Source of the DNA: Candidatus Woesearchaeota archaeon
GTDB lineage: Archaea > Nanobdellota > Nanobdellia > Woesearchaeales > B29-G15
Assembly: GCA_017610005.1 (NCBI GenBank)
Contig: JAFCCU010000001.1
Location: forward strand, 80,371 to 144,370
DNA: 64,000 nucleotides
Reading direction: 5' to 3'
Below are positions 2,048-15,591 of the stretch, one piece after another. The translations under genes and the position numbers were made by a program. Position 1 is the stretch's first letter, and every line of letters begins with the position of its first letter. The notes below the pieces were generated by a model, which was given only the letters and a program-made list of their open reading frames with translations, made no database searches and was not told where the DNA came from.

Positions 2048-2269
2048 GTGAAGCACTTGAAAAAACAAGTTTACGAAAAACTTGCTGCTCTAATAACTGC
2101 AGCATTTGGGCTTGTAGCTGCATTGGCTTGGAATGATACAATTAAGGCAATATTCAAGGCAGTATTTGGTAATTCTGATGGTATCTGGCCCATGTTAATT
2201 TATGCAGTTATTGTAACAATTATTGCGATATTTGTAACAATTTGGATTAGCAAGCTGGCTGACAAATAA
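2048..2269 (+). CDS. Small two-TM membrane protein (hypothetical). A TTG at 2057, nine nt after an AAGGAGGTG Shine-Dalgarno, is a likelier start.
   Basis: Two hydrophobic helices (LAALITAAFGLVAALAW and MLIYAVIVTIIAIFVTIWI). Strong SD sequence upstream. Confidence 0.5.
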   Translation: MKHLKKQVYEKLAALITAAFGLVAALAWNDTIKAIFKAVFGNSDGIWPMLIYAVIVTIIAIFVTIWISKLADK

Positions 2270-2292: not shown

Positions 2293-2430
2293 CGCCAAAT
2301 GTGCAAAACCTTTATAAGGCATTGCTGGTTAGTACTTTGTGGTGGTACGGGGATTGAAATTGGGGATATTAAATTATATTACTAAAAGTGAATTTAGTGA
2401 TTTCTTAAATAAAGATTACGGGGCAACAAG

Positions 2431-3678
2431 ATGAGCGATTCCGTAAGACCAAGACTGGATGATTTATTAAGAGAACCAGAAGATTATGGATGGAGATCTG
2501 GACCCCTTGAAGAGATTACTTGGACGTATACAAGGACGTCGCCAGGTGGGGAAACTAAACAATTTAAGAAAACTGAACCAGTTTATTATGTTAGAAAACA
2601 TGAAGTAATTCCAGCAGGCGAACACAAAATTGATTTTGATATTATAATTGAAGAGGGAGGATTTTTACAGGTACGTGCAGGTGCACATTTATATGAGGGA
2701 GAGATGAAATCAATTTGTGTTAGGGGAGGGACTCTACAAATCGAAGGTACTCCTAAAAATAAAGTGATTATTGCACCGATGACGGGTGTAAGAAACTTTT
2801 TAGGACTATCTTTTGAAGATAAATCCAGGGATTCTATCATTAGAAATTGTGATATTTTTGGAGAAACATTTGGGAATCAATTTGTGGAAGAAAATCCTTC
2901 TGATAGGGAGTTTAATATGGCCATGATAAGGCTTAAGGATCATTCCTACGTATCTTTAGATGGTGTCAACATTTTTGTAGGGGATTTGGTTGCTGGAGCA
3001 GTTAAACTCAACGAGTCGGGGATGTCTCTTAGAAATTCACAACTTACTTCCACTTCAAGAAAAGAAAGAAAACCTTATGGAATTTTAGGAGAAGATTCAT
3101 CTGCAGAAATTTACAAAACTGGGTTTAAGGGATTTAGAGAAAGTCCAATTTCTGGAAAAATGAATTTAGTACTTGTTGGAAGCGTAGTAGAAGATTATGA
3201 AGGCCAAAGAAGTTTTATTCATATACAGAAATACAATGTTAAGGCAGAAGATAATACATTTAAGGATTGTATCGTTGATGGAAATTCTAGGCCTGGGGGG
3301 ATAACATTAGATCAAGTTCCTTTTTTTACCTTCCAGTGGAATAAGTACATAAATTGTCGTGCTAATCGGGGAGGAGGAGTAAGAACAAGATTCTCAAAAG
3401 GGACATTTAAAGATGAAGAATTTAGAAAATGTAAGGCTCAAAATGGTGGAGCAGTTCATGTATTAGAGGGGCATGTTAGATTTGAAGATTGTGAATTTCT
3501 TGAAGGATATGCCTCTGAAAGAGGGGGCGCATTATGGTTGCAGGCTGATTCAGAAGGACCCTTGCATGAGGTTGTGAATTGTACAGCTAAAGGGAATACA
3601 GGCAAACTTGCAGGTAGAAATTATTTCCACCATCCTGAGCGCAAACAAGCTACAATCATAGGAGGGATACAAGAATAA
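2431..3678 (+). CDS. Tagged family member 1: N-terminal MSDSVRPRLDDLLREP tag plus right-handed parallel beta-helix protein
   Basis: N-tag, then a WRS motif, IPAGEH-x-IDFDII, AGAHL, and repeated GGxV/GGAL beta-helix-like turns (GGGVRTRF, NGGAVHVLEG, RGGALWLQ). No signal peptide or TM segment. Confidence 0.7.
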   Translation: MSDSVRPRLDDLLREPEDYGWRSGPLEEITWTYTRTSPGGETKQFKKTEPVYYVRKHEVIPAGEHKIDFDIIIEEGGFLQVRAGAHLYEGEMKSICVRGGTLQIEGTPKNKVIIAPMTGVRNFLGLSFEDKSRDSIIRNCDIFGETFGNQFVEENPSDREFNMAMIRLKDHSYVSLDGVNIFVGDLVAGAVKLNESGMSLRNSQLTSTSRKERKPYGILGEDSSAEIYKTGFKGFRESPISGKMNLVLVGSVVEDYEGQRSFIHIQKYNVKAEDNTFKDCIVDGNSRPGGITLDQVPFFTFQWNKYINCRANRGGGVRTRFSKGTFKDEEFRKCKAQNGGAVHVLEGHVRFEDCEFLEGYASERGGALWLQADSEGPLHEVVNCTAKGNTGKLAGRNYFHHPERKQATIIGGIQE

Positions 3679-4664
3679 TGTCAAGTGATGATAGTATCAG
3701 GGGAAGGGTTGAAGATTTATTAAAAATTCCTGGTGAGGGGGTTTCTTCTGAAATGAGCCTCATTTTTGGAGATACCCCTCCCGAAGGGTTTTCAAGAGAA
3801 AATGGAGTAATCTCCTTACCTCATGGGAGTGCATTAGTTAAACCTATTGTTAAATCAAAAACAATTGAAGAGATTTTACTTGATGGTAAAAATTTGCCTA
3901 ATTCTGTAGATTTTGCAAAGAAAAGAAATATATTAAAATTATTACAAGCTGCAAGAGAACAAATTTGTTTAAACGTTCAGGCAAAATATCCTATTCTTGA
4001 ACTTCCAAAAGATAGTTTTGGAAATGATTTACAAGTCATTGATTCAAGTATTGGTCTCTTGCCTGCAATTTTAGAATTTCATCCAGTGAGCATTAAAAAG
4101 GTTTCTGGGAGAATTGAAGTGGTTGACCTTTATACACAAAAAAAGTATTCCTCAAGTCTAGGACATTCATATGAGAACGAAATATTAACCAAAAAAACTT
4201 GTTTTTCAGAAAGTATGGGATCATTGGCTATTGCAGGTGCAATGATGGACCAACTTTCTTTACTTTCAAACACAATAGAAGACAATGGGAGAATTGGATT
4301 TAGGCCAGGCGAAGGAATTGTTGTTTATTTTCCTTTTTGGAAATTCTTAGTAAAGCAAACACTTGACATAATGGGGGAGGATATTTTACAATTCAAGGTA
4401 ATGGGGAAGGGATCAATAGAAAGACATTTTTGGGAACATGAGGCAACTGTTAGTTTCTATCATGGAATTTCTTTTGATGGAATACTCGGGCATTATGAAG
4501 GTTATGATTTTGGATTATCTATGAGGGGTGTTGGTGTAAGTAATTTAATTAAATCTGATAAGGTAACTAATAAACAAATAAGAGCGCATCCCTCTCCTTT
4601 TTTCCCTCCAATCAAGGCCCCGGCGGAGTTAGTTTATTCCTTTACAGGGGGTAGAATAAATTGA
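3678..4664 (+). CDS. Tagged family member 2: N-tag (SIRGRVEDLLKIPGEG) plus unrelated 310-aa body
   Basis: Start overlaps the previous stop (TAATG). The tag is divergent but recognisable. Body has no beta-helix repeats and no TM segment. Confidence 0.55.
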   Translation: MSSDDSIRGRVEDLLKIPGEGVSSEMSLIFGDTPPEGFSRENGVISLPHGSALVKPIVKSKTIEEILLDGKNLPNSVDFAKKRNILKLLQAAREQICLNVQAKYPILELPKDSFGNDLQVIDSSIGLLPAILEFHPVSIKKVSGRIEVVDLYTQKKYSSSLGHSYENEILTKKTCFSESMGSLAIAGAMMDQLSLLSNTIEDNGRIGFRPGEGIVVYFPFWKFLVKQTLDIMGEDILQFKVMGKGSIERHFWEHEATVSFYHGISFDGILGHYEGYDFGLSMRGVGVSNLIKSDKVTNKQIRAHPSPFFPPIKAPAELVYSFTGGRIN

Positions 4665-5005
4665 CAGATTCAGGATCTATTAGACAGAGAATGGATGATC
4701 TTTTACGTATCCCAGAAGTATCTCAAATTGAACAAATTGCAAATACTCAACATGTTGCCCCATCCATTGTAAAACCTAATTGGCCCAACAGAGAATATTA
4801 TGCTATGTTAAATGATTATTGCAAACAGTTACAAACAGAGGCTGAAGAATCAAGAAAAGGGGAAGAGCAAGCACAAGCAATTGGTGCAATTGTTGTTAGC
4901 CTTTGGTATTACGGTGTAATTAAGCCAGCGGCTCCTTTTATTGCTTATGCTGCTAAAAGGATTTTTCATCCTACAAGAAAGGTTATAAAAAATGCCAGAA
5001 AATGA
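4661..5005 (+). CDS. Tagged family member 3: 114-aa protein, N-tag plus C-terminal TM helix (tail-anchored type)
   Basis: MTDSGSIRQRMDDLLRIPE tag. C-terminal hydrophobic AIGAIVVSLWYYGVIKPAAPFIAYAA followed by a basic tail. Start overlaps the previous gene by 4 nt. Confidence 0.5.
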   Translation: MTDSGSIRQRMDDLLRIPEVSQIEQIANTQHVAPSIVKPNWPNREYYAMLNDYCKQLQTEAEESRKGEEQAQAIGAIVVSLWYYGVIKPAAPFIAYAAKRIFHPTRKVIKNARK

Positions 5006-6224
5006 TTCAGTAAGGGATAAGTTGGATCACTTAGTTAGTAGTGCAAGTGATCTTTTATCTTCTCCAATTACAAAGGATATTACACTTCCAATTGATGAGT
5101 ATCATCTTGCAAATCCTATTAGGGTTGCACCTTCAGGATCATTAACAATTCTTGGAGGCACAGTAATTCACAGAGGCCTTAAATCTGGGATTATTGCAGA
5201 AGGCCCAATTTTTATAAAAGGAGAAGAGGAAAATGAAGTTCTCTTTCCCTCAAAAAATAATAAAACTGGGGCTCCTGGAATTTTAATTAGCGGAGAAGCT
5301 GCTAAAAGTTCAGAATTAAAACATTTAATCATAGGTGGGGGGAATGATCCAATTTTACATCGATATAGGATTAAAGGCTTAAATGGATTTATAGGAGATT
5401 CTGCGATTAATGTTGTTGATTCAAAAGCCAAATTGGAGGATGTGCAAATTGAAGACTGGAGAGGGGTTTCTTCCATCAGTTTTTTAAGATCAAAAGGAGA
5501 AATGACAAGAGTGCAAGTCCTGAGAGGAGGAGACATTTCAAATGCTCCAAAGTACAATGGTGCAGGGATTAGTATCCACCAATCTACTGTAAATATAGAA
5601 AATGGTTTAATTAGGTTGGTGGAAGGACAAGGGCTTATTGCAGTTGAAAGTGCAGTTTTTATAGAAAATATTGATGTTACAGAATGTCTAGGCGCAGGAA
5701 TTGTTTATTCAAGATCTTCTGGGGCAATTTTGGGTGGAAATTCCCGACAAAACGGAATAGGTATATTTGTCTATGAGGGGTTTGATTTTAATATTAAAAA
5801 TTTTGTTATCAAAAGAAACAAAAAATCTGGCGTAGTTCTTGTTTGCCCTCAAGAAGTCGTGTTGACTGAGTGTCCAATCAGATCAAATGGAAGAGCAAAA
5901 TATGGGGGAGGGGTTTATTTAGATTTAGGAAAAGAAGGCACAAGCAGAGCTGAAATTCTTGGATGTGAAATAATTGGAAACTCAGCAAAATGTGGTGGAG
6001 GAGTTGTAATAAAAGGAATTGGAAATGGTACTTATAGTTTTGAAGGGACAATCATTGATAGGAATACTGTAACAGAAAAAGTAGGAGGAGTGCTCTTTGA
6101 AGCAAGTAAGATTGGAAATTTAGAGGAATTATTTAATGGGACTATGGGCGAAGAGAACATCCCTACTAAGTTTGGAGTAGAAGTAGGAATTACTGGAGGA
6201 TTTGATTATGGGCCGTACAAATAA
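4992..6224 (+). CDS. Tagged family member 4: N-tag (DSVRDKLDHLVSS) plus parallel beta-helix protein
   Basis: Repeated GGGVYLD, CGGGVVIKG and VGGVLFEAS turns, Gly/Asn/Ile-rich. Overlaps member 3 by 14 nt. Confidence 0.65.
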   Translation: MPENDSVRDKLDHLVSSASDLLSSPITKDITLPIDEYHLANPIRVAPSGSLTILGGTVIHRGLKSGIIAEGPIFIKGEEENEVLFPSKNNKTGAPGILISGEAAKSSELKHLIIGGGNDPILHRYRIKGLNGFIGDSAINVVDSKAKLEDVQIEDWRGVSSISFLRSKGEMTRVQVLRGGDISNAPKYNGAGISIHQSTVNIENGLIRLVEGQGLIAVESAVFIENIDVTECLGAGIVYSRSSGAILGGNSRQNGIGIFVYEGFDFNIKNFVIKRNKKSGVVLVCPQEVVLTECPIRSNGRAKYGGGVYLDLGKEGTSRAEILGCEIIGNSAKCGGGVVIKGIGNGTYSFEGTIIDRNTVTEKVGGVLFEASKIGNLEELFNGTMGEENIPTKFGVEVGITGGFDYGPYK

Positions 6225-9087
6225 AGATTCAGTAAGAAAGGATTTAGATGATTTAGTTAGTCTCCCTCCTATTGCTCAACCTTCTAAAGATAATATAGCT
6301 AGTAGTCCTCATGTTACTCCACCATATCAAAAGAAAAATTTTTTTAAAAGATATCCAAAAATTTCTACAGCATTGGCAGTTGGGACAGTGGGATTATTGC
6401 TCTGGGGAACTTTTGGCATTATGAAAAGGTTAAGCCAAACTAATTTAATAAACCTCCCAGCAGAAACTTATGAGGTTGACCCATATGTAAGAACAGAAAA
6501 TGAATTACAGGACCTTACAACTCAAGTTCATAATTTTAAAACAGGAATTTTATCAGGAACAGTAACAGAGGCAAGTTATAATTCTCTTCTCAGCCAAATC
6601 AATTTCAAACCAGAATACCAAGAATTAACAAAGGGACTTGAAACTGCGTGGTTTGATGGAGTAACTCTACCTGGTTATCTTGCTGACCTACAAACTGCAA
6701 GAGACCATTTAGAAGCTGATGATATTAACGCTACAAATTTGGCTATTGATTCGCTTGAACAAAGATTGCAAGAAGATATTGGAGAACATCCAAATTTATT
6801 AACAATCCAATCTGAAATAACACAATTAAGAGAATTAACTATTCCATATTCTATTCTTGAAAATAGATTTGAAGCCCTAGATGAAATGGTTGATGATGAC
6901 AACCTCAAAAGTGCATTAGTTTTCTCATCAACATTACTTACAGATATTCAATTATTTATTAATCAAAAGGACTACCTCCCTGCTAAAGTTTTATTGCAAG
7001 AAGCACAATCTTACCAGTTAAATTCAATTGAGATTCCCATTGGGGAAGGGGGCCTAATTGCCTTAAAAAATCAAGCTGAAGGGGGGCGTTACGAAGATGT
7101 GCTTGAACAATTTGAATCCTTATATCAATTTTTATCAATGAGCGAATCCCCTGAGCTTGTTGCTCTTGCCCTAGAAACAGGTTCATTCTTTTTTGAGGGT
7201 TATCTTGTCCCCATGAATCGAGCAATAGTGGGATCAATATATCAAGACTTATTTCCAGCTAACAACTTTGATAGGGCAAGGGAAATGACTGATTCTATGG
7301 TGGAAGAAGTAAGGGCATTTAGACAAGAATATAATTTTGGAATATTAAACACTTTTGCTCAAGAACTGGACCAATTAGTTGATTCAATCAATTCCGCTGA
7401 AGAAGAATACTTGAGGGTCGAAGCATTAGGTGATGTTGTTCAAACTGTGGAAATGGTTTATGCATTATCTAATGCAGGGAATTATGATTTGGCTTATGAA
7501 CGATTTCAAGAGGCAGAAACAGAGTTACTTAAAATTAATACAATAGATGCAATCACCCTTAGAAAAAATATGAGAACTTTTGCAGAGGCAAATTTTTTAA
7601 GAGACGTTTTAACAAGGGCGCAGGGATCAATTGGTGAATTATTTGCTGAAGGGGAAGTCATTAATGCCTTGCAAGCAAATTATAATTTGGAGAAAGAATT
7701 GGGCAAAATAGAAGATGGCTCAGAGATAAGAAGTTTTAGGGATCAAATGGTGGAAGCAAGTGGTGCCCAAAGGGCTTCAATTATTAGCGCTTATTCAAGG
7801 AAAATATGGGCAGACACTGGAAATCATGATATTTCTCTTTCCATTAGACAAAGAAGTATGTGGACGAATGTGGACGGAGTTCCAAAAGCAGTATCTTTAT
7901 TCTTGCCCGGCATGGTTGCAGTTTCTCCTGGTGAGTCTCATGTTATTTTAGGTAATCTTCTATCTGAATCCTATTTATCAGATCCAAATAGATCTGGATA
8001 TATCTTTAACCCTTATATGTTTAAAAATTTTGTAATCGCTGATGCTGATGGGTCTCTTAGGAATAATGAGATAAATATTATTGCGTCTCTTTTTAGCAAT
8101 TTGGTTAAAAGAAGTATTGGTAGAGATGTTGTAACTTATTACAATTGGCAAGAAGGAGCCTTATTTGGTGACTTGGATATTCCTGAGATTTCCTGGGAAA
8201 GTGAAAATTCGTTTTGGATGGCAGCAGGACTTAATAGATATTTAATTACATTTAATCCTGAAAATAATTCTATTGTTGACATTGTGGAAGAACATTACGG
8301 TCGTGACTGGAATTATTTTGATTTGGGGGATAAAGATCACATTGAAGAGATTTTAACAGTTAACCCAGATAATTGGGATATTGATTTAGAAGATATTGAT
8401 GGTTCTAAAGAGATGATCGATCTGGGAAGGCAGTTTGGTGCTTCTTTGGCTATATTAAAATTTTATGATGCTAAGAGATTGGCTGAGGCAATTGTGGCCT
8501 ATGATGGCCAACCCGGCCTTAGTACTGCGGAAATAAACACAATAGAACGGGCTTCTTATGAATTAGAAAAAATAATAATGCCTAATCTTAGGTTCCTTAG
8601 CGCATTTAACCAAGGCACCATTTACCCAAACATTGAACAGAGACAAGATGGTCTTTATTCAATAATTGGTTCCAGAGAAATTGAGCTTTTTGATGGAACT
8701 CCTTGCAGGTATGGGGTTTCCCCTGATGCCTCAAGAGTTGCAATTGTAAGAATGACAAATGAGGGGTGGTATTTTTCTGATTTTATTGTTGTTGATATTG
8801 ATGGGAGGGACCGTGTTGATAACTCCGCAATTCTAAATATGATAAACCAAGTTGAGGATAGCAGGGAAGGGGAAGCTTCGTGTGATGTTATTCAATTTGT
8901 ACCATTTGAGTGGGTCGATAATGATACGATTAGGGCAAATTATCCAAGAAGTGTGTCAGATGTGTGTTTAATAGATGTTAATAGAGATAATCAAATTGTT
9001 TACTTTATAGACCCAGTTTATACAAATAAGGAGTGGACTGAAAGAGAGATAAGAGACGAAATGGGGGCCAATTACCCTGGGAATTAA
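6202..9087 (+). CDS. Tagged family member 5: 961-aa type-II membrane protein. Cytoplasmic N-tag, signal-anchor TM, large helical/mixed ectodomain.
   Basis: NKDSVRKDLDDLVSLPP tag. KKNFFKRYPK followed by hydrophobic ISTALAVGTVGLLLWGTFGIM, giving N-in topology. C-terminus ...EMGANYPGN. Confidence 0.7.
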   Translation: MIMGRTNKDSVRKDLDDLVSLPPIAQPSKDNIASSPHVTPPYQKKNFFKRYPKISTALAVGTVGLLLWGTFGIMKRLSQTNLINLPAETYEVDPYVRTENELQDLTTQVHNFKTGILSGTVTEASYNSLLSQINFKPEYQELTKGLETAWFDGVTLPGYLADLQTARDHLEADDINATNLAIDSLEQRLQEDIGEHPNLLTIQSEITQLRELTIPYSILENRFEALDEMVDDDNLKSALVFSSTLLTDIQLFINQKDYLPAKVLLQEAQSYQLNSIEIPIGEGGLIALKNQAEGGRYEDVLEQFESLYQFLSMSESPELVALALETGSFFFEGYLVPMNRAIVGSIYQDLFPANNFDRAREMTDSMVEEVRAFRQEYNFGILNTFAQELDQLVDSINSAEEEYLRVEALGDVVQTVEMVYALSNAGNYDLAYERFQEAETELLKINTIDAITLRKNMRTFAEANFLRDVLTRAQGSIGELFAEGEVINALQANYNLEKELGKIEDGSEIRSFRDQMVEASGAQRASIISAYSRKIWADTGNHDISLSIRQRSMWTNVDGVPKAVSLFLPGMVAVSPGESHVILGNLLSESYLSDPNRSGYIFNPYMFKNFVIADADGSLRNNEINIIASLFSNLVKRSIGRDVVTYYNWQEGALFGDLDIPEISWESENSFWMAAGLNRYLITFNPENNSIVDIVEEHYGRDWNYFDLGDKDHIEEILTVNPDNWDIDLEDIDGSKEMIDLGRQFGASLAILKFYDAKRLAEAIVAYDGQPGLSTAEINTIERASYELEKIIMPNLRFLSAFNQGTIYPNIEQRQDGLYSIIGSREIELFDGTPCRYGVSPDASRVAIVRMTNEGWYFSDFIVVDIDGRDRVDNSAILNMINQVEDSREGEASCDVIQFVPFEWVDNDTIRANYPRSVSDVCLIDVNRDNQIVYFIDPVYTNKEWTEREIRDEMGANYPGN

Positions 9088-9120
9088 AATGAGAATTATG
9101 GGGCAAATGAGGAATAAGAA

Positions 9121-10194
9121 ATGAGTGATTCAGTAAGAAAACAACTGGATGATCTATTAAGAGAATCAGCTAAAGAAGGAGTTCTTAGAGGTGAGAGGCC
9201 TTTAGAAAGGGAAAGACTCTTAGATGGTTCAAAACCAGCTACGCAATATATATCTCCAGGAGGACCATATGGTAAAAAGGAAGTAGGCAGAAGAATTCTT
9301 CTCCCAGGAGATCACATCTTTAATCATATTATAAATGTTAACGGAAACCTTGAACTACAAGCAGGGGCACATTTAATCCCTGGTCCAGAAGGAGGGTTAA
9401 ATGTTGAAGGAAAGTTAATCTTCCTGGGTACAGAAGATAATCCTGTTATAGTTGAACCAGCAATGGGATATTGCCAGGGCATTGTCGTTAGGGAAGGAGT
9501 TGTGCATTTTGAACATGCCCAGATTATTGGAATGAGTAAGCTTGATATTGTTAAAGGGGTAACAAGAATACTTGGCAAAACAGGATTAAAAATGATTGGT
9601 TCGTATGGGTCATTAAAAGACACCGAGTTTACAGAAAGTGCGTATATTTCAATGGATGGAGAAGGTTCAACTGTTAGGTTGATGAGAGTAAACGCACATA
9701 ATAATGGTGGATTTGTTGGTTGTCCAATCTTACAATTCTTCCGAGGTAGTCTTTTTGCTGAAGAGCTTGGTATGTACAACAATAGGTCAGAATATTCAGG
9801 GTTATCAATTGCGATGATGAAAGCTGAAATTGTTAGAGCTCATCTGAGATCTCAAAGAACAACCGCGTTGCGTGTGTATTCTAGTCAATTATTAATGGAG
9901 GACTCTATTATAGCGGAAAATAGTGCCCGTTATGGGGCTGGTTTATCTATTGAAGAAAATTCATTGGTTGAATTGTTGGACACTATTGTAAGAAGTAATG
10001 ATGCAAAAGTGGCTGCTGCAGGAACATATTTGCAAGAGTCAATATTAAGATTAAAAGGAACAACTAGATATGAGAAAAACAGGGCCCCTATTGCAGAAGC
10101 AATAGGTTTTGTAGGAAAACCTCCAAAGTTGGAAGATTCAGTACATATAGATGGTGAAATCTTAGCTATAGAAAGAATAACTGGGAGGTCCTAA
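9121..10194 (+). CDS. Tagged family member 6: MSDSVRKQLDDLLRES tag plus beta-helix-like protein
   Basis: The 5' 45 nt are near-identical to member 8. LLPGDHIFNHIINVNGNLELQAGAHLIPGP is shared with members 1 and 7-9. Confidence 0.7.
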   Translation: MSDSVRKQLDDLLRESAKEGVLRGERPLERERLLDGSKPATQYISPGGPYGKKEVGRRILLPGDHIFNHIINVNGNLELQAGAHLIPGPEGGLNVEGKLIFLGTEDNPVIVEPAMGYCQGIVVREGVVHFEHAQIIGMSKLDIVKGVTRILGKTGLKMIGSYGSLKDTEFTESAYISMDGEGSTVRLMRVNAHNNGGFVGCPILQFFRGSLFAEELGMYNNRSEYSGLSIAMMKAEIVRAHLRSQRTTALRVYSSQLLMEDSIIAENSARYGAGLSIEENSLVELLDTIVRSNDAKVAAAGTYLQESILRLKGTTRYEKNRAPIAEAIGFVGKPPKLEDSVHIDGEILAIERITGRS

Positions 10195-10245
10195 GAAAAA
10201 TCAAGTTAAAGACATTTATCACAGGATGTTGACTAAAAGAATATT

Positions 10246-10335
10246 GTGAGAAGAAATGGGAACCAATTACCCTGGGAATTAAAATGAGAATTATCAAGCA
10301 AATGGGGAAAACGAAATGAGTGATTCAGTAAGGGA
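10246..10335 (+). repeat. Duplicated gene-junction fragment: a copy of 9052-9140 (3' end of member 5, intergenic spacer, 5' end of the next gene)
   Basis: gaaatgggaaccaattaccctgggaattaaaatgagaattat... versus gaaatgggggccaattaccctgggaattaaaatgagaattat... A relic ...EEMGTNYPGN* reading frame is preceded by a stop. Confidence 0.8.
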
Positions 10336-11629
10336 GAAGTTGGATGACATTGTAAGGGCCCCAATTAGAAAAGGTTGGAGAAGTCATCCTTGTACTACTA
10401 GCTCGTGGGATGTTACAAAAGGTGGGAGAAAAGTTTATTCTTATAAGGCTGATACTTATACTGTAAGGGGAGAAGAGACAATTCCCGCAGGAGATCATTT
10501 TTTCGATTATAACATTAGTGTTCTAGAAGGCGCAGTATTAACAATTGATCCTGGCGCAAGGCTTTTTTTCGCATCTTTATGTGGGATACAAGTAGTTGAT
10601 GGGAAGCTTGTTAGTAGGGGTGAAAAGAATAATAAGGTCAAAATATATCGAATGAGGGGATCACTAAATGGTTCTGCAATAAAGTTTTTTGGAGAAAAAG
10701 AAACTTCTTTATTAAGACATACTGAGATTCATGGAGAAGAAATATCATTTGGGCCGGAAAATAACCTTGATCATATTTTGGAATATTCTCCTGAATTAAT
10801 CAAATTGAATGTTGCGCATGTAGACCTAGAAGAAACCACTCTATTTATGGGAGAGTATTGTAATGAAGCAATAAATTTAACCACAAGATCTGTTCTAAAA
10901 ATGAAAGGAGGAGGAATAGTAGGAGGCAAGACTCCACTTGGAGCTACAGTAAGAGGAATATCTGGTATTGGGTCAAGGTTACTAATTGATGGGGCGTCAT
11001 TTAAAGATATTAATGGAGATGTATTTGCAAATCTAATTGATTGTTCAACTACAGTAAGATCAAGCACATTTGAAAATTTAAGAGGAAATCTTTGGGGAGG
11101 AGTATTTCATGTAGGAAAGGGCACACTCACAGTTACTGATTCAACATTTGTTAAGGATGGATCTAATAGTATGGGGGGAGTTTATTATTTAGCTGGAGGA
11201 ACAATAAGATCAAGAGGGAATACTTATGAGGAGTGTTTTTCTAAACAAGGGGGAGTAATTTATGTTTTAAATGGGTCTGCATACTTTGGAGAGGACGATT
11301 TTCTTTCAAGTCGGGGAGAAAATGGAGGGGTTGTTTATGTATCGTATACTTCAAAAGAGCTTGATGGGGGAAGAGTAGAATTAATTTCTTGCAATGGAAA
11401 TAATAATCATGCAAAAATGGGAGCCATAGGGTATTTAGAAGGTGGCGGATTAATTGTTAAACAGGGGAAATATAGATGGAACTTAGCTAGTGAAGCAGGA
11501 AATTTAGCTTATTGGAGAGACCCAGCCTTTGTTGCTTTTGAAGATGTTAATTATTTGACTATCTCCCCAAATAATTTTGCCCACAGAAGAGGTTTTATTG
11601 GACCCATAGAAAAGAGGAGGAAAATTTGA
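10316..11629 (+). CDS. Tagged family member 7: MSDSVREKLDDIVRAP plus WRSH motif plus parallel beta-helix
   Basis: TIPAGDHFFDYNISVLEGAVLTIDPGARLFF; GGVFHV, GGVYYLAGG, GGVIYVLNG, GGVVYVSY repeats. C-terminus NNFAHRRGFIGPIEKRRKI. Confidence 0.75.
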   Translation: MSDSVREKLDDIVRAPIRKGWRSHPCTTSSWDVTKGGRKVYSYKADTYTVRGEETIPAGDHFFDYNISVLEGAVLTIDPGARLFFASLCGIQVVDGKLVSRGEKNNKVKIYRMRGSLNGSAIKFFGEKETSLLRHTEIHGEEISFGPENNLDHILEYSPELIKLNVAHVDLEETTLFMGEYCNEAINLTTRSVLKMKGGGIVGGKTPLGATVRGISGIGSRLLIDGASFKDINGDVFANLIDCSTTVRSSTFENLRGNLWGGVFHVGKGTLTVTDSTFVKDGSNSMGGVYYLAGGTIRSRGNTYEECFSKQGGVIYVLNGSAYFGEDDFLSSRGENGGVVYVSYTSKELDGGRVELISCNGNNNHAKMGAIGYLEGGGLIVKQGKYRWNLASEAGNLAYWRDPAFVAFEDVNYLTISPNNFAHRRGFIGPIEKRRKI

Positions 11630-11651
11630 CAATGAAAAGGAGGCATAACCA

Positions 11652-12977
11652 ATGAGTGATTCAGTAAGAAAACAACTGGATGATTTATTAAGAGAACCAG
11701 TTGGAAAAGATTGGAGAAGTCATGATAGCGCATTAAACACTTGGTCTCTTAAAAAAGGAGAAGAAGAATTTTTCTCGTGGCAAGCAAAAACCTACACAGT
11801 GAGAGGAAATGAAACAATTCCCGCAGGAGATCATTTTTTCGATTATAACATTAGTGTCCTAGAAGGCGCAGTATTAACAATTGATCCTGGAGCCAGAATT
11901 TTTTTCGCATCACTTTGTGGGATTGAAGTAAATAATGGAAAAATTGTTTCTAATGGAGAAGAAGATAATCCTGTTGAAATATACAGGATGCAAGGATCTA
12001 GACAAGGATCCTCAATCAAATTTTTTGGAAATCAGGAAACTTCTGTGTTGAGACATACTGAGATTCATGGTGAAGAGATTTCATTTGGCCCTGTAGATGA
12101 GCTTGAACATATAGTAGAGCATACTCCCCCTTTAGTTAAACTTAATGAGGCTCATGTGATATTTGAAGATTCAACTATTTTTTTAGGACAGTATTGTAGC
12201 AAGGGAATTGACTTCAGACAAGATTCTCATTTGGCTATCAAGGGAGGAGGGATAGTAGGAGGGCCAGCCCCCATAGGAGTTAATTTGATTGGAATGGCTG
12301 GAAAAGATTCTAGGCTTCAAATTGAAAGGGCATTATTTAGAGATCTTAAAGGGCAAGGGTTAGCAAGTTTGACTAACTGCACTTCTGAAGTAAAATCTAG
12401 CACTTTTAGGGATATTATTGCAAATTCATTAGGGAGAGGGTTCACCATAGGGCCTGGAACTCTCACAGCTACAGGTAACACCTTTCTTAGAGTTAGTTCT
12501 GATGACTATGGAGGGGTTTTTTATGTTTCAGATGGCAAATTAAAATCAAGAGGAAATAGGTATGAACAATGTTCTTCTAAAGAAGGGGGAGTGGTTTATG
12601 TTTCTAAAAATGGACATGCTTTCTTTGAAGAAGATGATTTTATTAAAAATCAAAGTGAATCTGGAGGCGTAGTTTACATTGGCTTTACTCCAAAAGAAAA
12701 ATTTGATGAGAGGGGCCATGCAAGATTAATTTCATGTACTGGAAGAGGCAATAATGCAACAAATGGAGGAATTGCATACTTGTTAAGTGGAGGATTAATT
12801 GTTGAAGGAGGAAAATACCGAGAAAATAAATCTAAGGAATCTGGAAATTTAGTGTTTTGGCAAGGGGATTGGACCCCTGTTTCGTTTAAAGATGTAAACT
12901 ATTTGGCAATTTCCTCAAATAATTTTGCACATAGAAAAGATTTTTTTGGAGCAATAGAAAAGAAGAGGAAAATTTGA
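11652..12977 (+). CDS. Tagged family member 8: tandem paralog of member 7
   Basis: About 80% identical to member 7 over the first ~150 aa and at the C-terminus (NNFAHRKDFFGAIEKKRKI), divergent in the middle. Same GGVxYV repeats. Confidence 0.75.
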   Translation: MSDSVRKQLDDLLREPVGKDWRSHDSALNTWSLKKGEEEFFSWQAKTYTVRGNETIPAGDHFFDYNISVLEGAVLTIDPGARIFFASLCGIEVNNGKIVSNGEEDNPVEIYRMQGSRQGSSIKFFGNQETSVLRHTEIHGEEISFGPVDELEHIVEHTPPLVKLNEAHVIFEDSTIFLGQYCSKGIDFRQDSHLAIKGGGIVGGPAPIGVNLIGMAGKDSRLQIERALFRDLKGQGLASLTNCTSEVKSSTFRDIIANSLGRGFTIGPGTLTATGNTFLRVSSDDYGGVFYVSDGKLKSRGNRYEQCSSKEGGVVYVSKNGHAFFEEDDFIKNQSESGGVVYIGFTPKEKFDERGHARLISCTGRGNNATNGGIAYLLSGGLIVEGGKYRENKSKESGNLVFWQGDWTPVSFKDVNYLAISSNNFAHRKDFFGAIEKKRKI

Positions 12978-12999
12978 CAATGAAAATGAGGAATAACCG

Positions 13000-14223
13000 A
13001 TGAGTAATTCAGTAAGAAAAACACTGGATGATCTATTAAGAGAACCAGTTAGAAATGATTGGAGGAGTCATGACCTAATCATACAAACATGGTCATTTAC
13101 TGAGCAGGTTTCAATAGATTCACAGATAGAACATACCCTTGATTTACCCACTTATGTTGTCACAGGTAATGAAACAATTCCTGCAGGAGATCATCCAATA
13201 GACTATAATATTGTAGTAGCAAGTTCAGGAAAATTAACAATTGAAGATGGAGCCAAGTTATTTTTTGATGATATGTTTAGTTTAACTTCAGATGGTGAAG
13301 TTCAAGTTTTAAGCTCTCCGGAAAGAAGAGTATTGTTTGCCCCGATGAAGGGTGTTAAGAACTTCAAGGGGGTTTGGTTAAATGGGCGCCAAAGAAAATA
13401 CCTCTTGCAGCATGTTGATTTTACTGATGATACTAGGTTTAGCCCATATACCGCAAAGAATGTTAGGAACTTTCAAATGCCTCAAAGGTTACTCCATATA
13501 GAAGATGCTGAAGTGGATTTAAGAGATGTGACATTTACGCTTGGAAGATTTTCGCAAGATGCATTAGCCATGTTTAATGCCACAGTAAATCTCTATGATC
13601 CTAAATTTTTCACAAAAGGTGAGGCATTAAAATGGATGACTAAAAATGGGGAAATGGAGGGACACGGGGGAATTTATGGACATGATTCAAAAGTTTTAGT
13701 AGAAAGAGGCTTATTTGATGGATGCGTTGGGCGAATTGGAGGAGCATTGAGGCTTGATGATTGTGATACTACCCTTAAAAATACTAAATTGATTAATAGT
13801 AGAAGTAGGCTTTGGGGTGGCGGTTTAAGTGCATCTGGGGGTTCATTAAATCTATTGGGATGCGAGTTATTGGATAATGAAGGAGCTATGATGGGAGGGG
13901 CGGTATCTGCTGAGAATTTAAGAATATTAGTAGAGGGAGGAGTTTATAGAAGAAATCATTCAGAGTTTGATGGAGGTGCATTTTGCCTTAGAAATGTAAA
14001 TGGAAAAATTGTAAAAGTAAGGGTTGAGAGAAATGGATCCTATCATGGTGCAGGGTATTTCTTAGATGATTGTAATCTTGTTTTTGAAGGGGGAGATATA
14101 GAATATAATGAAGGTCATTTTGGTGCAGGGATATATTGGGAGGGGAAAAAACCAAAAATTAGAGGAACAAAAGTTAGAAGTAATATTCCAAAAGAAGATC
14201 AGATTTATTGTGGGGATGTTTAA
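13000..14223 (+). CDS. Tagged family member 9: MSNSVRKTLDDLLREPVRNDWRSHD plus beta-helix-like protein
   Basis: Shares the tag, WRSHD and TGNETIPAGDHPIDYNIVV with members 7 and 8. GGALRLDD, WGGGLSASGG and GGAVSAENL turns. The 7/8 and 8/9 junctions are homologous at DNA level. Confidence 0.7.
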   Translation: MSNSVRKTLDDLLREPVRNDWRSHDLIIQTWSFTEQVSIDSQIEHTLDLPTYVVTGNETIPAGDHPIDYNIVVASSGKLTIEDGAKLFFDDMFSLTSDGEVQVLSSPERRVLFAPMKGVKNFKGVWLNGRQRKYLLQHVDFTDDTRFSPYTAKNVRNFQMPQRLLHIEDAEVDLRDVTFTLGRFSQDALAMFNATVNLYDPKFFTKGEALKWMTKNGEMEGHGGIYGHDSKVLVERGLFDGCVGRIGGALRLDDCDTTLKNTKLINSRSRLWGGGLSASGGSLNLLGCELLDNEGAMMGGAVSAENLRILVEGGVYRRNHSEFDGGAFCLRNVNGKIVKVRVERNGSYHGAGYFLDDCNLVFEGGDIEYNEGHFGAGIYWEGKKPKIRGTKVRSNIPKEDQIYCGDV

Positions 14224-14226
14224 AAA

Positions 14227-15591
14227 ATGATAGATGATCAAGTAAGAACAAAAATGGATGATTTATTGAGAATTCCAAAAAAACCATGGTGGAAATACCT
14301 AGGATTTTATGCAGGTATTCCTGCAGTTATTCTTGTTGCAGTTTCTGCCTGGTATTTTACAAGACCAGAAGAACCTGTTGTTCAAGATCCAGTTGTTATA
14401 ACTGCCCCTACTGAAGAAGCACCCCCTATAGATACATTGATTGGTCCAATTGCCACCCCTCAATTTAGCCCAATCGAATCTGGATATAGGGAGTTACTTT
14501 TATTATTTGAACAAGAGCATTATGATCTTATTAGGGAAAGCGGTCCGGAATTATTAGAATTGGCAAGAGATGAAGGCTCAGAGCTTTTAGGAAACATTGA
14601 AAAATTACTTTCAAATGCAAATTTAGAGTATTATCTTGTAGAAATTGAAAAGAGATCACAAAATCAATATACCTTACTTGGGATACAATCCCTTGATGTT
14701 ATTATTGGAGAAATCGATGAAAAAGCAGGCCTTCAGGATGCACTTTTAGAAGCTTACAGGGCAAAGTATGACCTAATTAAAGATTCATTATCTCAAGGTT
14801 ATATCGCTCTCACCAAGAGCCAGTTAGAGGGAATCTTGGAAGATGCTGCATATCTAAGGCAAAGGATTGGTGGGCCAGAGATTAGGTCTCTCCTAGGCGA
14901 AATACAGATAACTTATGACCATCAAATTTTACTTCCTGAACTTGAGGGAGAATTGTACGCCATTACTAAAAAATCTAATCCCGGTTACACAGATTTATCC
15001 TCTGCTCAAATTATCCTTGATTCACTAAAAGCAATTGATGACAATTCAACCTCTCGCTCATCAAGAGAGGCCATATCTGATGTTGAAGATTTTATTGAAA
15101 CATTTTCTCCAACTGTAGAAGTTAGAAATCTTTATTTAACACTGGCCTCCCAAGTATCAAACAGCAATTTTAGTGAAGCAGAAACCACTTATCAACAACT
15201 CTTAACAATCGCCAATTTAAATCCTTCAAGATCTATGGGGAATCTCATGGAAGGAATAGATTCTTATTATATTGAGAATTTAAAAATTCCAGAATTTAAA
15301 AGAAGACTTGAAGAATTATCCACTTCTGGACAAATGTTTTTAGATTCATTATTTTTAAATTGGGTTGGATCTAATGTGACTCCTGTTGCAGGGCCAGGAC
15401 TTAGAATATTATTTGTTGAAATAGATGAATTAAATGAGAAATATTCAGATCCAAGACTTCAAGATTTAAGTAAACAAACTCTTGATCAGATAGGTAGAGA
15501 TCAAATATCATTGATTGGATCGGTAGGAGTAATGTTGGGGTATGCTGTTTTAGGGGTCATGGTGGTAGGAAGTATTGTTAATGATTATTAG
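14227..15591 (+). CDS. Tagged family member 10: N-tag (QVRTKMDDLLRIPKKPWWKY) plus signal-anchor TM, large helical ectodomain and C-terminal TM
   Basis: Tag followed by KK, then GFYAGIPAVILVAVSAWYF (N-in TM). C-terminal IGSVGVMLGYAVLGVMVVGSIV hydrophobic segment. Confidence 0.65.
   Translation: MIDDQVRTKMDDLLRIPKKPWWKYLGFYAGIPAVILVAVSAWYFTRPEEPVVQDPVVITAPTEEAPPIDTLIGPIATPQFSPIESGYRELLLLFEQEHYDLIRESGPELLELARDEGSELLGNIEKLLSNANLEYYLVEIEKRSQNQYTLLGIQSLDVIIGEIDEKAGLQDALLEAYRAKYDLIKDSLSQGYIALTKSQLEGILEDAAYLRQRIGGPEIRSLLGEIQITYDHQILLPELEGELYAITKKSNPGYTDLSSAQIILDSLKAIDDNSTSRSSREAISDVEDFIETFSPTVEVRNLYLTLASQVSNSNFSEAETTYQQLLTIANLNPSRSMGNLMEGIDSYYIENLKIPEFKRRLEELSTSGQMFLDSLFLNWVGSNVTPVAGPGLRILFVEIDELNEKYSDPRLQDLSKQTLDQIGRDQISLIGSVGVMLGYAVLGVMVVGSIVNDY

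What the first reader, a model, noticed from the sequence alone, without database searches (positions are those of the whole stretch)
2431..15591. Ten consecutive same-strand genes that share a ~16-aa N-terminal tag (DSVRxxLDDLLRxP) but have very different bodies
Every ORF between 2431 and 15591 begins with a near-identical hydrophilic peptide. Examples: MSDSVRPRLDDLLREP, MSSDDSIRGRVEDLLKIP, MTDSGSIRQRMDDLLRIP, MPENDSVRDKLDHLVSS, …NKDSVRKDLDDLVSLP, MSDSVRKQLDDLLRES, MSDSVREKLDDIVRAP, MSDSVRKQLDDLLREP, MSNSVRKTLDDLLREP, MIDDQVRTKMDDLLRIP. The bodies differ in fold and topology. Members 1, 4 and 6-9 are Gly/Asn-rich right-handed parallel beta-helix proteins with GGxV(Y)V-type turns. Members 1, 7, 8 and 9 add a conserved WRSH(P/D) motif and an IPAGDHxxDYNI module. 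Members 5 and 10 are large type-II membrane proteins. Member 3 is a 114-aa tail-anchored protein. Member 2 is unrelated in sequence. The genes are tightly packed with 1-23 nt overlaps, which is operon-like. I do not recognise this tag as a Sec, Tat, class-III or archaeosortase signal. It is charged, has no hydrophobic core, and no PGF-CTERM or PEF-CTERM is present. Sharing only a short N-terminal module among otherwise divergent cargoes resembles the logic of polymorphic toxin/effector families or secretion-tagged surface-protein families. For an archaeon this would be an undescribed targeting or tagging system.
Basis: partly seen in the sequence, partly recalled or inferred. Interest (0 to 1): 0.88.

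Follow-up and report, generated by a model that had tools for sequence, protein, structure and literature searches.

The report
Shared N-terminal helix tag operon
Ten neighbouring genes of an uncultured archaeon all start with the same 14-residue helix-forming peptide although they encode at least five unrelated kinds of protein; the peptide matches no known signal and is most likely a common docking handle, but it was found in this one locus only.

Summary
Ten consecutive + strand genes (2431-15591) each begin with [DNG][SQ][VI]Rxx[LMV][DE][DH][LI][LV][RKS]x[PSA]. A tag HMM scores the ten at 27-35 bits; the next best segment in all six frames of the 64 kb scores 3.8. The "different bodies" claim needs correcting. 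Six members (m1, m4, m6-m9) are one divergent right-handed beta-helix paralogue family. m2, m3, m5 and m10 are unrelated to that family and to each other, so the tag sits on at least five body types. Synonymous codon variation, and no conserved RNA structure, put the constraint on the peptide. The tag is a three-turn amphipathic helix ending in Pro. It has no hydrophobic core, RR, GG or YSIRK features. In the two clear membrane proteins it is predicted on the cytoplasmic side. Both members searched (m5, m8) are orphans among 5.8 billion proteins. No N-terminal tag was found in 185,579 species genomes. No partner, secretion or virion genes lie in the window. Best reading (about 0.38): a shared docking helix that gathers the operon's products at the inner membrane face. 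Export signal, duplication relic and degron remain open. The finding is interesting but rests on a single locus.

The parts
2431..3678 (+). m1, 415 aa, tagged right-handed beta-helix protein (tag core nt 2437-2478, DSVRPRLDDLLREP)
   Evidence: Pfam Beta_helix scores 24.3 bits, just below the 25.9 cut-off. Paralogue of m7, m8 and m9 at E 1e-22 to 1e-26. No hydrophobic N-region.
3678..4664 (+). m2, 328 aa, tagged soluble protein of unknown fold (tag nt 3690-3731, DSIRGRVEDLLKIP)
   Evidence: No Pfam, PHROG, NCBIfam or PDB match. Body unrelated to the other members. The single-sequence AlphaFold2 model failed, pLDDT 31.
4661..5005 (+). m3, 114 aa, TTG start, tagged small protein (tag nt 4673-4714, GSIRQRMDDLLRIP). 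It has a weak C-terminal hydrophobic segment at about residues 72-98 and a +6 C-terminal tail.
   Evidence: Maximum Kyte-Doolittle score 1.39; topology ambiguous.
4992..6224 (+). m4, 410 aa, tagged beta-helix protein with the most degenerate tag (nt 5004-5045, DSVRDKLDHLVSSA)
   Evidence: Pfam Beta_helix 41.3 bits (cut-off 25.9) and NosD 24.2 bits. Weak link to m9, E 4e-6.
6202..9087 (+). m5, 961 aa (or 959 aa from the ATG at 6208), tagged bitopic membrane protein. Tag nt 6226-6267 (DSVRKDLDDLVSLP); TM at residues 56-74; about 885 aa of very acidic (net -74) extracytoplasmic part.
   Evidence: N-flank +5, C-flank +1, so N-in. Orphan: the only hit among 5.8 billion proteins is itself. No PDB or Pfam match.
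9121..10194 (+). m6, 357 aa, tagged divergent beta-helix paralogue (tag nt 9127-9168, DSVRKQLDDLLRES)
   Evidence: (E 1e-4 to m1, 7e-5 to m8).
10316..11629 (+). m7, 437 aa, tagged beta-helix protein (tag nt 10322-10363, DSVREKLDDIVRAP) with WRSH and IPAGDH modules
   Evidence: (P0002, 57% identical to m8).
11652..12977 (+). m8, 441 aa, tagged beta-helix protein (tag nt 11658-11699, DSVRKQLDDLLREP)
   Evidence: AlphaFold2 gives pLDDT 81.7 and pTM 0.84. Residues 3-13 form a helix (pLDDT 52-61), followed by a beta-hairpin cap and a beta-helix. Foldseek PDB hits are PL6 lyases, AlgG and CBA120 TSP3, E about 1e-4. The only homologues in 5.8 billion proteins are m7 and m9.
13000..14223 (+). m9, 407 aa, tagged beta-helix protein (tag nt 13006-13047, NSVRKTLDDLLREP)
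   Evidence: (P0003).
14227..15591 (+). m10, 454 aa, tagged membrane protein. Tag nt 14236-14277 (DQVRTKMDDLLRIP); TM1 at residues 24-45 starts six residues after the tag; acidic (net -33) external domain; TM2 at 426-453 at the extreme C-terminus.
   Evidence: N-flank +3 with 5 K/R, C-flank -2, so N-in.
2057..2269 (+). Untagged 70-aa DUF5654 small membrane protein with its own RBS, between the divergent regulator and m1. It may be the first gene of the transcription unit.
   Evidence: PF18898, 91.3 bits.
1235..1957 (-). TrmB-family regulator, divergently oriented upstream of the operon
   Evidence: PF01978, 63 bits.
15850..16580 (-). Second TrmB-like gene, split into two ORFs (16320-16580 HTH; 15850-16302 C-domain). 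It is a paralogue of 1235-1957 and brackets the operon on the other side.
   Evidence: 44% identity; 58% identity.
10228..10315 (+). Remnant copy of the 3' end of m5 plus the intergenic spacer, lying upstream of m7. It is a trace of segmental duplication within the operon.
   Evidence: D5: 9033-9179 vs 10228-10374, 76%.

Best explanation
The tag is a short N-terminal docking (assembly) helix. It has three amphipathic turns with V/I, L/M, L and L/V on one face. Invariant Arg and near-invariant Asp residues sit on the polar side. Asp/Ser cap the N-end, and Pro stops the helix before a variable linker.

All ten products of one operon carry it, so all can bind the same site. That site is either an unidentified hub at the cytoplasmic face of the membrane or the tags of the other members, bundling together.

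The membrane proteins m5 and m10 (and perhaps m3) present their tags at the inner membrane surface. The six soluble beta-helix paralogues and m2 would be recruited there. The operon would then build one envelope-associated multi-protein assembly whose interchangeable beta-helix subunits share a common plug.

Shown: the tag exists, is exclusive to these genes in the window, is constrained at the peptide level, is predicted helical and detached from the fold, lacks every feature of known signal peptides, and sits on at least five unrelated bodies.

Inferred: cytoplasmic location (positive-inside rule only), binding to a common partner, and the existence of a complex.
For: - Exclusivity: the ten tags score 27-35 bits against 3.8 bits or less for everything else in 64 kb.
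- Modularity: tag identity averages 58% across all 45 pairs, including pairs with no body similarity. The m1, m6, m8 and m9 tags are 79-93% identical while the bodies of m1, m8 and m9 are 23-28% identical by BLASTP and m6 matches them only over a short stretch.
- Peptide-level constraint: 125 of 364 identical residue pairs use different codons. RNAalifold finds no pairs around the ten starts.
- Helix: AlphaFold2 on m8 gives helix 3-13 before the beta-helix. Even the failed m2 model puts helix 7-14 on the tag. Hydrophobic moment is 0.46-0.78 with net charge about 0.
- Cytoplasmic side: the m10 flanks are +3 (N) and -2 (C), and its TM starts six residues after the tag. The m5 flanks are +5 and +1.
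- No h-region in the soluble members.
- Operon organisation: overlapping or closely spaced genes, each with an RBS.
- Precedent for the logic: 7-29-aa conserved N-terminal peptides dock otherwise unrelated beta-helix tailspikes onto an adaptor (PMC6872550). Amphipathic N-terminal encapsulation peptides recruit unrelated enzymes (PMC4594438 and PMC12339742).
Against: - No receptor or hub gene is identified. The only untagged gene in the unit is a 70-aa DUF5654 protein.
- No interaction was tested; AlphaFold-multimer was not available.
- By the positive-inside rule, m3 (C-tail +6, N-flank -3) would place its tag outside. That conflicts with a purely cytoplasmic site unless its weak hydrophobic segment is a hairpin or not membrane-spanning.
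- CASH/Pmp-type beta-helices are, from general knowledge, nearly always extracellular. The outside matches are giant repeat proteins of 1,200-7,800 aa. This argues that the soluble members must leave the cell somehow.
- Everything rests on a single locus in a single contig. No comparative support could be obtained.
Confidence: 0.38

Rival explanations
1. The tag is a non-classical export or hand-over signal. It delivers the signal-peptide-less beta-helix proteins (and m2) to a dedicated translocation route at the membrane, and they end up on the cell surface. The membrane members carry the tag because they are recruited to, or form part of, the same site.
For: - The beta-helix bodies resemble extracellular lyases, epimerases, adhesins and tailspikes. 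Their repeats match giant surface-type repeat proteins.
- m5 and m10 have large acidic extracytoplasmic domains, so the operon looks envelope-directed.
- The seven soluble members have no Sec, Tat or class III features, so any export would need another signal.
- The tag lies at the extreme N-terminus and is followed by Pro and a linker, as cleavable leaders often are.
Against: - In m5 and m10 the tag is predicted to stay cytoplasmic, so it cannot be a translocated leader there.
- There is no conserved cleavage motif after the tag. Residues following R-x-P vary.
- No transporter, ATPase, peptidase or secretion gene lies in the operon or elsewhere in the 64 kb.
- N-glycosylation sequon density does not separate these proteins from cytoplasmic controls.
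Confidence: 0.25
2. The tag is a historical by-product with little or no function of its own. A 5' gene end (RBS plus the first 15-20 codons) was copied repeatedly by unequal recombination within a rapidly expanding lineage-specific island and fused to new bodies. The near-identical 40-66-nt starts then act mainly as recombination substrates that keep being homogenised.
For: - Traces of segmental duplication: a remnant of the m5 3' end lies upstream of m7, and 11530-11725 vs 12878-13073 are 86% identical across a gene boundary.
- The same codon is used at 66% of identical tag residues against 47% expected from body codon usage.
- Tag similarity is decoupled from body phylogeny. The m8 tag is 93% identical to m6 and 86% to m1 and m9, but only 64% to its closest paralogue m7.
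- The tag was not found anywhere else. The locus is bracketed by paralogous TrmB genes and a duplicated gene fragment.
Against: - Within the beta-helix family the bodies have diverged to 23-28% identity, and m2, m3, m5 and m10 show no detectable similarity to one another or to that family. The tag stays at 43-93% identity with an invariant Arg and near-invariant Ser, Asp and Leu. Without selection it should have decayed like the bodies.
- A third of the identical residues use different codons, so recent conversion alone does not explain the identity.
- The conserved positions follow helical periodicity (i, i+4, i+7, i+8). Neutral DNA relics do not do that.
Confidence: 0.12
3. The tag is a common N-terminal degron or regulatory handle. 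A membrane-proximal protease or unfoldase (for example the membrane-bound LonB encoded at 36798-38690, or PAN/proteasome) or a chaperone recognises it. This allows coordinated turnover or quality control of all products of the operon.
For: - Exposed, detached N-terminal helix.
- Predicted cytoplasmic, membrane-proximal position in m5 and m10.
- LonB and a PAC2 proteasome-assembly factor are present in the window.
Against: - There is no specific link between the tag and any protease. LonB is 21 kb away among housekeeping genes.
- To my knowledge, degrons are rarely this strictly conserved in sequence across one operon only.
- No adaptor gene is present.
Confidence: 0.1
4. The locus is virus-derived, for example a provirus remnant or tailocin-like module. 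In this reading the beta-helix proteins are receptor-binding spikes, and the tag is the conserved adaptor-binding peptide seen in multi-tailspike phages.
For: - Foldseek hits include CBA120 TSP3, HK620, P22 and Fri1 tailspikes.
- Multi-spike phages use conserved N-terminal peptides as short as 7 aa on otherwise unrelated beta-helix spikes (PMC6872550).
- The operon looks like an insertion between duplicated flanks.
Against: - No PHROG hit for any of the ten proteins.
- No tblastn hit in 50,697 phage records, and none in IMG/VR.
- No capsid, portal, terminase, tail or adjacent integrase genes.
- The tag is also on integral membrane proteins with a cytoplasmic N-terminus.
- The fold matches are generic for the pectate-lyase fold (TM-score 0.2-0.45).
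Confidence: 0.06

Closest known systems
Conserved N-terminal adaptor peptides of multi-tailspike phages (K1-5/SP6, G7C, CBA120, Klebsiella KP32/Menlow/PhiK64-1 groups; PMC6872550)
   Same: Several right-handed beta-helix proteins are encoded side by side. They share only a very short (7-29 aa) N-terminal peptide while their bodies diverge or are unrelated. The peptide is a plug for a common docking site, and modules are exchanged by recombination.
   Different: - No virion or adaptor (T4gp10-like) gene, no PHROG or phage sequence match, and a chromosomal archaeal context.
- The tag is also on integral membrane proteins, a small hydrophobic protein and a non-beta-helix protein.
- The tag is predicted cytoplasmic in the membrane members.
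Bacterial microcompartment encapsulation peptides (PMC4594438, PMC12339742)
   Same: An amphipathic helix of about 15-20 aa sits at the terminus of functionally unrelated proteins of one operon. It is joined to the body by a flexible linker and recruits them all into one assembly.
   Different: - No BMC shell (PF00936, PF03319) genes in the window.
- BMCs are not known in archaea (own knowledge).
- The cargo here is beta-helix and membrane proteins, not metabolic enzymes.
- Encapsulation peptides are not conserved in sequence to this degree.
Helical short linear motifs that dock into helical bundles: paxillin LD motif (LDxLLxxL) and ESCRT-III MIM1 ((D/E)xxLxxRLxxL(K/R)). Both consensus strings are recalled from memory, not tested.
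   Same: The core LDDLL(R) fits LDxLL / LxxLL. The hydrophobic spacing i, i+4, i+7(8) followed by a basic residue resembles MIM1. These are short acidic amphipathic helices at a protein terminus.
   Different: - These are eukaryotic or ESCRT-context motifs.
- No FAT, MIT or Vps4 domain was detected in the 64 kb.
- The resemblance covers 5-8 residues and could be chance.
Dockerin-cohesin logic of cellulosomes
   Same: A small shared module on diverse bodies gathers them on one scaffold.
   Different: Dockerins are Ca-binding domains of about 60-70 aa on Sec-secreted proteins. Here there is no dockerin or cohesin Pfam hit, no signal peptides, and the tag is only 14 aa.
N-terminal leaders and signals: Sec, Tat, class III, the YSIRK-G/S signal-peptide motif, and double-glycine leaders
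   Same: They occupy the extreme N-terminus. 'SVRK/SIRx' superficially recalls YSIRK, and the acidic amphipathic helix recalls GG-leaders.
   Different: No hydrophobic core after the motif, no RR, no GxxS, no GG/GA cleavage site, and no C39-peptidase ABC exporter nearby.

Membership tests
Sec / class III (prepilin-like) signal peptides | Hydrophobic h-region of about 7-20 residues within the first 30-40 residues | tested here: not met
   The maximum 10-residue Kyte-Doolittle score in the first 60 aa of m1, m2, m3, m6, m7, m8 and m9 is -0.10 to 1.13. For m4 it is 1.78, at residue 50 and inside the beta-helix. Only m5 and m10 have a hydrophobic stretch, and that is their signal-anchor TM downstream of the tag.
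Tat signal peptides | Twin-arginine motif (S/T-R-R-x-F-L-K) followed by an h-region | tested here: not met
   None of the ten N-termini has RR, and there is no h-region.
YSIRK-G/S signal peptide motif (PF04650) | YSIRKxxxGxxS inside the n-region of a Sec signal peptide | tested here: not met
   No Pfam hit at E up to 1. The tag has [DN]S[VI]R but no GxxS and no following h-region.
Double-glycine (C39/PCAT) leader peptides | Leader ending in GG/GA/GS at the cleavage site, with a peptidase-domain ABC exporter nearby | tested here: not met
   Residues after the tag vary and show no conserved GG. No ABC transporter or C39 peptidase appears among the roughly 50 window proteins scanned.
Archaeosortase/exosortase C-terminal sorting signals (PGF-CTERM, PEF-CTERM) | C-terminal PGF/PEF tripeptide, then a TM helix, then a basic tail | tested here: not met
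   Only m10 ends in a TM helix (426-453). It has no PGF/PEF and no basic tail, ending ...SIVNDY. No NCBIfam hit.
Bacterial microcompartment encapsulation peptide system | Shell proteins (BMC-H PF00936, BMC-P PF03319) encoded with the tagged cargo | tested here: not met
   No such Pfam hit in any scanned protein of the window. The region upstream of nt 1 could not be seen.
Phage/virus tailspike module with a conserved N-terminal adaptor peptide | Virion structural context (adaptor with T4gp10-like domain, tail or baseplate, capsid) and homology to phage receptor-binding proteins | tested here: not met
   PHROGs gave no hit for the beta-helix members. tblastn against phages found none. IMG/VR scans found none at an N-terminus. 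No structural genes in the window.
Right-handed parallel beta-helix (PbH1/CASH, Pfam Beta_helix PF13229): the bodies of m1, m4, m6-m9 | Pfam score above the gathering threshold, or a pectate-lyase-type beta-helix fold | tested here: met
   m4 scores 41.3 bits against a 25.9 cut-off. m1 scores 24.3, just below it. The m8 AlphaFold2 model has pTM 0.84 with continuous beta rungs. Foldseek gives PL6 lyases and AlgG at probability 1.00. The profile matches thousands of beta-helix repeat proteins. Membership of m6, m7 and m9 is by paralogy only.
Polymorphic toxin / effector families | Conserved N-terminal trafficking domain, variable C-terminal toxin domain, and an adjacent immunity gene | tested here: not met
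   No toxin, immunity or trafficking domain in Pfam, NCBIfam or PHROGs. The variable parts are whole structural proteins, not C-terminal tips. PADLOC was not run.
LD-motif / MIM1-type helical SLiM | Binding of the helix to a FAT-like four-helix bundle or a MIT domain | not testable with these tools
   The sequence fits LDxLL in eight of the ten tags. No MIT, Vps4 or FAT domain was found in the window.

The most novel reading that the evidence does not exclude
The tag is the address label of a previously undescribed archaeal sorting system. In this reading a short, charged, non-hydrophobic N-terminal helix is recognised at the inner face of the membrane. It directs both integral membrane and signal-peptide-less beta-helix proteins to one site, from which the soluble members are exported or assembled into a surface structure independently of Sec, Tat and archaeosortase.
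Probability: 0.2. Interest if true: 0.88.

Novelty: new variant of a known kind. Interest (0 to 1): 0.6.

Why it matters
Archaeal protein sorting is known through Sec, Tat, class III signals and C-terminal archaeosortase signals. How signal-less surface-type proteins of small-genome uncultured archaea reach their place is open.

This operon offers a compact, testable case. It has a 14-residue peptide with a clear consensus on ten proteins of at least five architectures, including two or three membrane anchors.

If the tag is a docking or sorting handle, three things follow:
- It defines a new portable tag for archaeal cell biology.
- It gives a way to find the receptor, using peptide pull-down or AF3 screening.
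- It explains how lineage-specific beta-helix arsenals are plugged into one structure.

If it turns out to be a duplication relic, it is still a clean example of 5'-end cassette spread inside a fast-evolving island.

Tried and rejected
1. Tag-profile search of the 5.8-billion-protein collection (A3). It returned nothing, not even the window's own proteins. Local hmmsearch with the same profile and the same database size gives those proteins E values of 1e-14 to 4e-5. The search failed its positive control and carries no weight.

2. Degenerate DNA pattern for the tag.
   - Genome contigs: 67 single hits, none at an N-terminus. The window's own genome is not in that collection.
   - Viral contigs: 7 chance hits, 0 with a second pattern, and 0 for an exact 43-mer.

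3. The look-up of encoding contigs for m8 and m10: not on record. The remaining roughly 150 kb of the 217,591-bp source contig could not be read.

4. Exhaustive profile search with the beta-helix family. The top 150 were swamped by giant repeat proteins that match only profile positions about 170-430. Weaker full-length homologues scoring below about 198 bits would not have been listed.

5. m2 single-sequence AlphaFold2 failed (pLDDT 31). The afdb50 library was unavailable.

6. PDB sequence searches for m2 and m5 found nothing.

7. An RNA-level explanation is rejected. RNAalifold finds 0 pairs, and the tag shows synonymous variation.

8. The N-glycosylation sequon density test for extracellular location was uninformative.

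9. The bacterial-type promoter/terminator scan gave the background number of sites.

11. Literature searches for the motif string and for a described archaeal N-terminal tag found nothing.

12. Organism identity below 'archaeon' could not be established. The archaeal assignment rests on LonB, family B polymerase, tRNA-intron endonuclease, PAC2 and TrmB.

Full report
WHAT IS THERE.

The window carries ten consecutive + strand ORFs:
- m1, 2431-3678
- m2, 3678-4664
- m3, 4661-5005
- m4, 4992-6224
- m5, 6202-9087
- m6, 9121-10194
- m7, 10316-11629
- m8, 11652-12977
- m9, 13000-14223
- m10, 14227-15591

Each is preceded by a GGAGG/GGGG-type ribosome-binding site. Each opens, 2-10 residues after the start codon, with the peptide [DNG][SQ][VI]-R-x-x-[LMV]-[DE]-[DH]-[LI]-[LV]-[RKS]-x-[PSA]. 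The first five genes overlap by 1-23 nt and the others are 3-121 nt apart.

A regex scan of all six frames finds the motif at these ten N-termini and nowhere else. An HMM of the ten tags separates them completely from the rest. The tags score 27.1-35.0 bits, and the best of the other 854 six-frame segments scores 3.8 bits.

HOW DIFFERENT ARE THE BODIES.

I removed the tags and ran an all-against-all BLASTP.
- m1, m7, m8 and m9 are clear paralogues (E 1e-22 to 1e-26; m7/m8 57% identical).
- m6 attaches weakly (1e-4 to m1, 7e-5 to m8).
- m4 attaches weakly to m9 (4e-6).
- The alignment confirms the shared WRSH and IPAGDHxxDYNI modules.
- m2, m3, m5 and m10 show no similarity to this family or to each other.

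So the ten genes represent at least five unrelated body types, not ten.

AlphaFold2 on m8, using its paralogues as the alignment, gives a confident model (pLDDT 81.7, pTM 0.84). Residues 3-13, which are the tag, form a helix of only moderate confidence (52-61). A beta-hairpin cap and a long right-handed beta-helix follow.

Foldseek against the PDB returns PL6 lyases, the AlgG epimerase, the PfbA adhesin, NosD and phage tailspikes. E values are about 1e-4 and TM-scores 0.2-0.45, which is a generic pectate-lyase-fold match. Pfam sees Beta_helix in m4 (41.3 bits) and just below threshold in m1.

The membrane members:
- m5 has one TM helix (56-74) followed by about 885 very acidic residues.
- m10 has a TM helix starting six residues after the tag (24-45) and another at the extreme C-terminus (426-453).
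- m3 has only a weak hydrophobic segment.

NATURE OF THE CONSTRAINT.

Tag identity averages 58% over all 45 pairs and reaches 79-93% among m1, m6, m8 and m9. Yet the bodies of m1, m8 and m9 are only 23-28% identical by BLASTP, and m6 matches them only over a short stretch.

At identical residues, 125 of 364 codon pairs differ. The peptide, not the DNA, is what is kept.

Identical codons are nevertheless somewhat more frequent than body codon usage predicts (0.66 against 0.47). Tag similarity also does not follow body phylogeny: the m8 tag is closer to those of m6, m1 and m9 than to that of its sister m7. This points to common descent of the tag DNA, with some exchange between genes.

The operon shows other duplication scars. 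A remnant of the m5 3' end lies upstream of m7, and an 86%-identical stretch runs across the m7/m8 and m8/m9 boundaries.

RNAalifold finds no conserved structure around the ten start sites.

WHAT THE TAG LOOKS LIKE.

The conserved hydrophobic positions (V/I, L/M, L, L/V at i, i+4, i+7, i+8) fall on one face of a helix. Arg is invariant, and Ser, Asp, Asp and Leu are at least 90% conserved. Pro follows in 8 of 10 tags. Hydrophobic moment is 0.46-0.78 and net charge is about zero.

There is no hydrophobic core, no twin arginine, no GxxS, no GG cleavage site and no C-terminal sorting signal. Pfam, NCBIfam and PHROGs return nothing for the N-termini.

By the positive-inside rule, the N-termini of m10 (flanks +3/-2) and m5 (+5/+1) are cytoplasmic. 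In m10 the tag must sit right at the inner membrane surface. m3 is ambiguous because its +6 C-terminal tail would argue for the opposite orientation if the weak segment spans the membrane.

DISTRIBUTION.

m8 has only m7 and m9 as homologues among 5.8 billion clustered proteins. m5 has only itself. All are on one 217,591-bp contig held by NCBI and JGI.

An exhaustive profile search with the beta-helix family recovers the window's own paralogues. Beyond them it finds only giant (1,200-7,800 aa) repeat proteins that match the C-terminal GGxVYV-type rungs, not the N-terminal module.

A degenerate DNA pattern for the tag gave these results:
- In one genome for each of 185,579 species, 67 single matches, none at an N-terminus.
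- In virus collections and in phage and plasmid records, nothing.

A tag-profile search of the large protein collection failed its own positive control and is disregarded. The rest of the source contig could not be reached.

As far as could be tested, then, the tag is confined to this operon. That test is incomplete, most importantly for the organism's own genome.

CONTEXT.

About 50 other proteins of the window were scanned against Pfam.
- The window is an archaeal chromosome. It carries LonB with the archaeal LID domain, family B polymerase, tRNA-intron endonuclease, PAC2 and ArgRS.
- There are no shell, secretion, peptidase-exporter or virion genes.
- The operon is preceded by an untagged 70-aa DUF5654 membrane protein (2057-2269) and a divergent TrmB-family regulator (1235-1957).
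- It is followed by a 210-bp duplicated fragment of the neighbouring methyltransferase gene and a second, split TrmB paralogue.
- The operon has slightly higher G+C and a much stronger G-over-C skew than its surroundings.

Together with its orphan status, this makes it look like a fast-evolving, possibly inserted, lineage-specific island.

INTERPRETATION.

One reading fits all ten carriers. The tag is a short docking helix presented at, or recruited to, the cytoplasmic face of the membrane. It binds either an unidentified hub or the other tags. The operon's products (two or three membrane anchors, six interchangeable beta-helix subunits and m2) would thereby assemble into one envelope-associated complex.

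The logic has precedents. Conserved 7-29-residue N-terminal peptides plug unrelated beta-helix tailspikes onto a common adaptor in multi-spike phages (PMC6872550). Amphipathic encapsulation peptides recruit unrelated enzymes into microcompartments (PMC4594438). Membership of either system is excluded here, because there are no virion genes, no shell genes and no sequence relation.

The core LDDLL(R) also fits the LDxLL/LxxLL and MIM1-type helical motifs. This is a recalled resemblance and was not tested.

I give the docking-helix reading about 0.38.

The main rival (0.25) is a non-classical export signal. It is attractive because this kind of beta-helix is almost always extracellular. It is weakened by the cytoplasmic tag of the membrane members, by the absence of a cleavage motif and by the absence of any transporter.

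A functionless duplication relic (0.12) is contradicted by the helical periodicity of conservation and by the survival of the tag on bodies that have diverged beyond recognition. A degron or regulatory handle (0.10) and a virus-derived spike module (0.06) remain possible. An RNA-level element is rejected.

VERDICT.

The modular, selected, non-canonical tag is shown. Targeting or secretion, partner genes and wider distribution are not.

The system lies outside every named family tested. Its logic is that of known shared-terminal-peptide docking systems, so I file it as a new variant of a known kind.

I give a 0.2 chance that it marks a truly new archaeal sorting route. The overall interest score is 0.6. 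It is held down by the single-locus evidence and by the inability to inspect the rest of the genome.

Noticed in passing
window 15606-15816 vs 16626-16837: A direct repeat of about 210 bp (81-84% identical) lies between m10 and the second TrmB-like gene. It is a copy of the 3' end of the methyltransferase gene (16607-17281, - strand). The repeat brackets that TrmB-like gene. It suggests a local duplication, with the tagged operon sitting at the junction as a possible insertion.
   Followed up: partly
window 15850-16302 and 16320-16580 (- strand): The downstream TrmB-like regulator is split into an 86-aa HTH ORF and a 150-aa C-domain ORF. These are 58% and 44% identical to the intact TrmB gene at 1235-1957. 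The split could be a pseudogene, a frameshift or an assembly error. The two paralogues flank the operon in the same orientation.
   Followed up: partly
window 10228-10374 vs 9033-9179; 11530-11725 vs 12878-13073: There are duplication scars inside the operon. The last roughly 90 nt of m5 plus the spacer are repeated upstream of m7 (76% identical). A 196-nt stretch spanning gene end, spacer and tag is 86% identical at the m7/m8 and m8/m9 junctions, although the m8 and m9 bodies are only about 28% identical. This is possible gene conversion or recombination at the tags.
   Followed up: partly
window 2001-14000: Strong positive GC skew (0.15-0.33) and slightly higher G+C (0.36-0.37) across the operon, compared with skew of about -0.19 to +0.25 and G+C of 0.33-0.34 in the immediate flanks (0.26-0.37 across the rest of the window). 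The cause was not investigated. It could be amino-acid composition (Gly, Asp, Glu, Arg codons) or foreign origin.
   Followed up: no
window 27717-31156 (- strand): A low-GC patch (0.26 at 28-30 kb) holds a peptide deformylase (unusual for an archaeon), a XerC/D-type tyrosine recombinase (28547-29353) and an AbiEii-type toxin (30212-31156). It may be an integrated element unrelated to the finding.
   Followed up: no
window 2057-2269 (+): A 70-aa DUF5654 two-helix membrane protein with a strong RBS lies directly upstream of m1. It is below the 80-aa ORF listing threshold used. It is the only untagged gene that may belong to the transcription unit.
   Followed up: partly
window 4992-6224 (m4): The m4 tag is the most degenerate (DSVRDKLDHLVSSA, with no Arg or Pro at the end). 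It is followed by a second partial copy of the tag's end (SDLLSSP). MAFFT aligned that copy to the DLLRxP of the other members.
   Followed up: no
tool behaviour: The word-indexed protein search with a 46-column alignment of the N-termini found 857 candidates but scored none. It did not return the six window proteins known to be in the collection. Negative results from short or low-complexity profile queries with that tool should not be trusted.
   Followed up: yes
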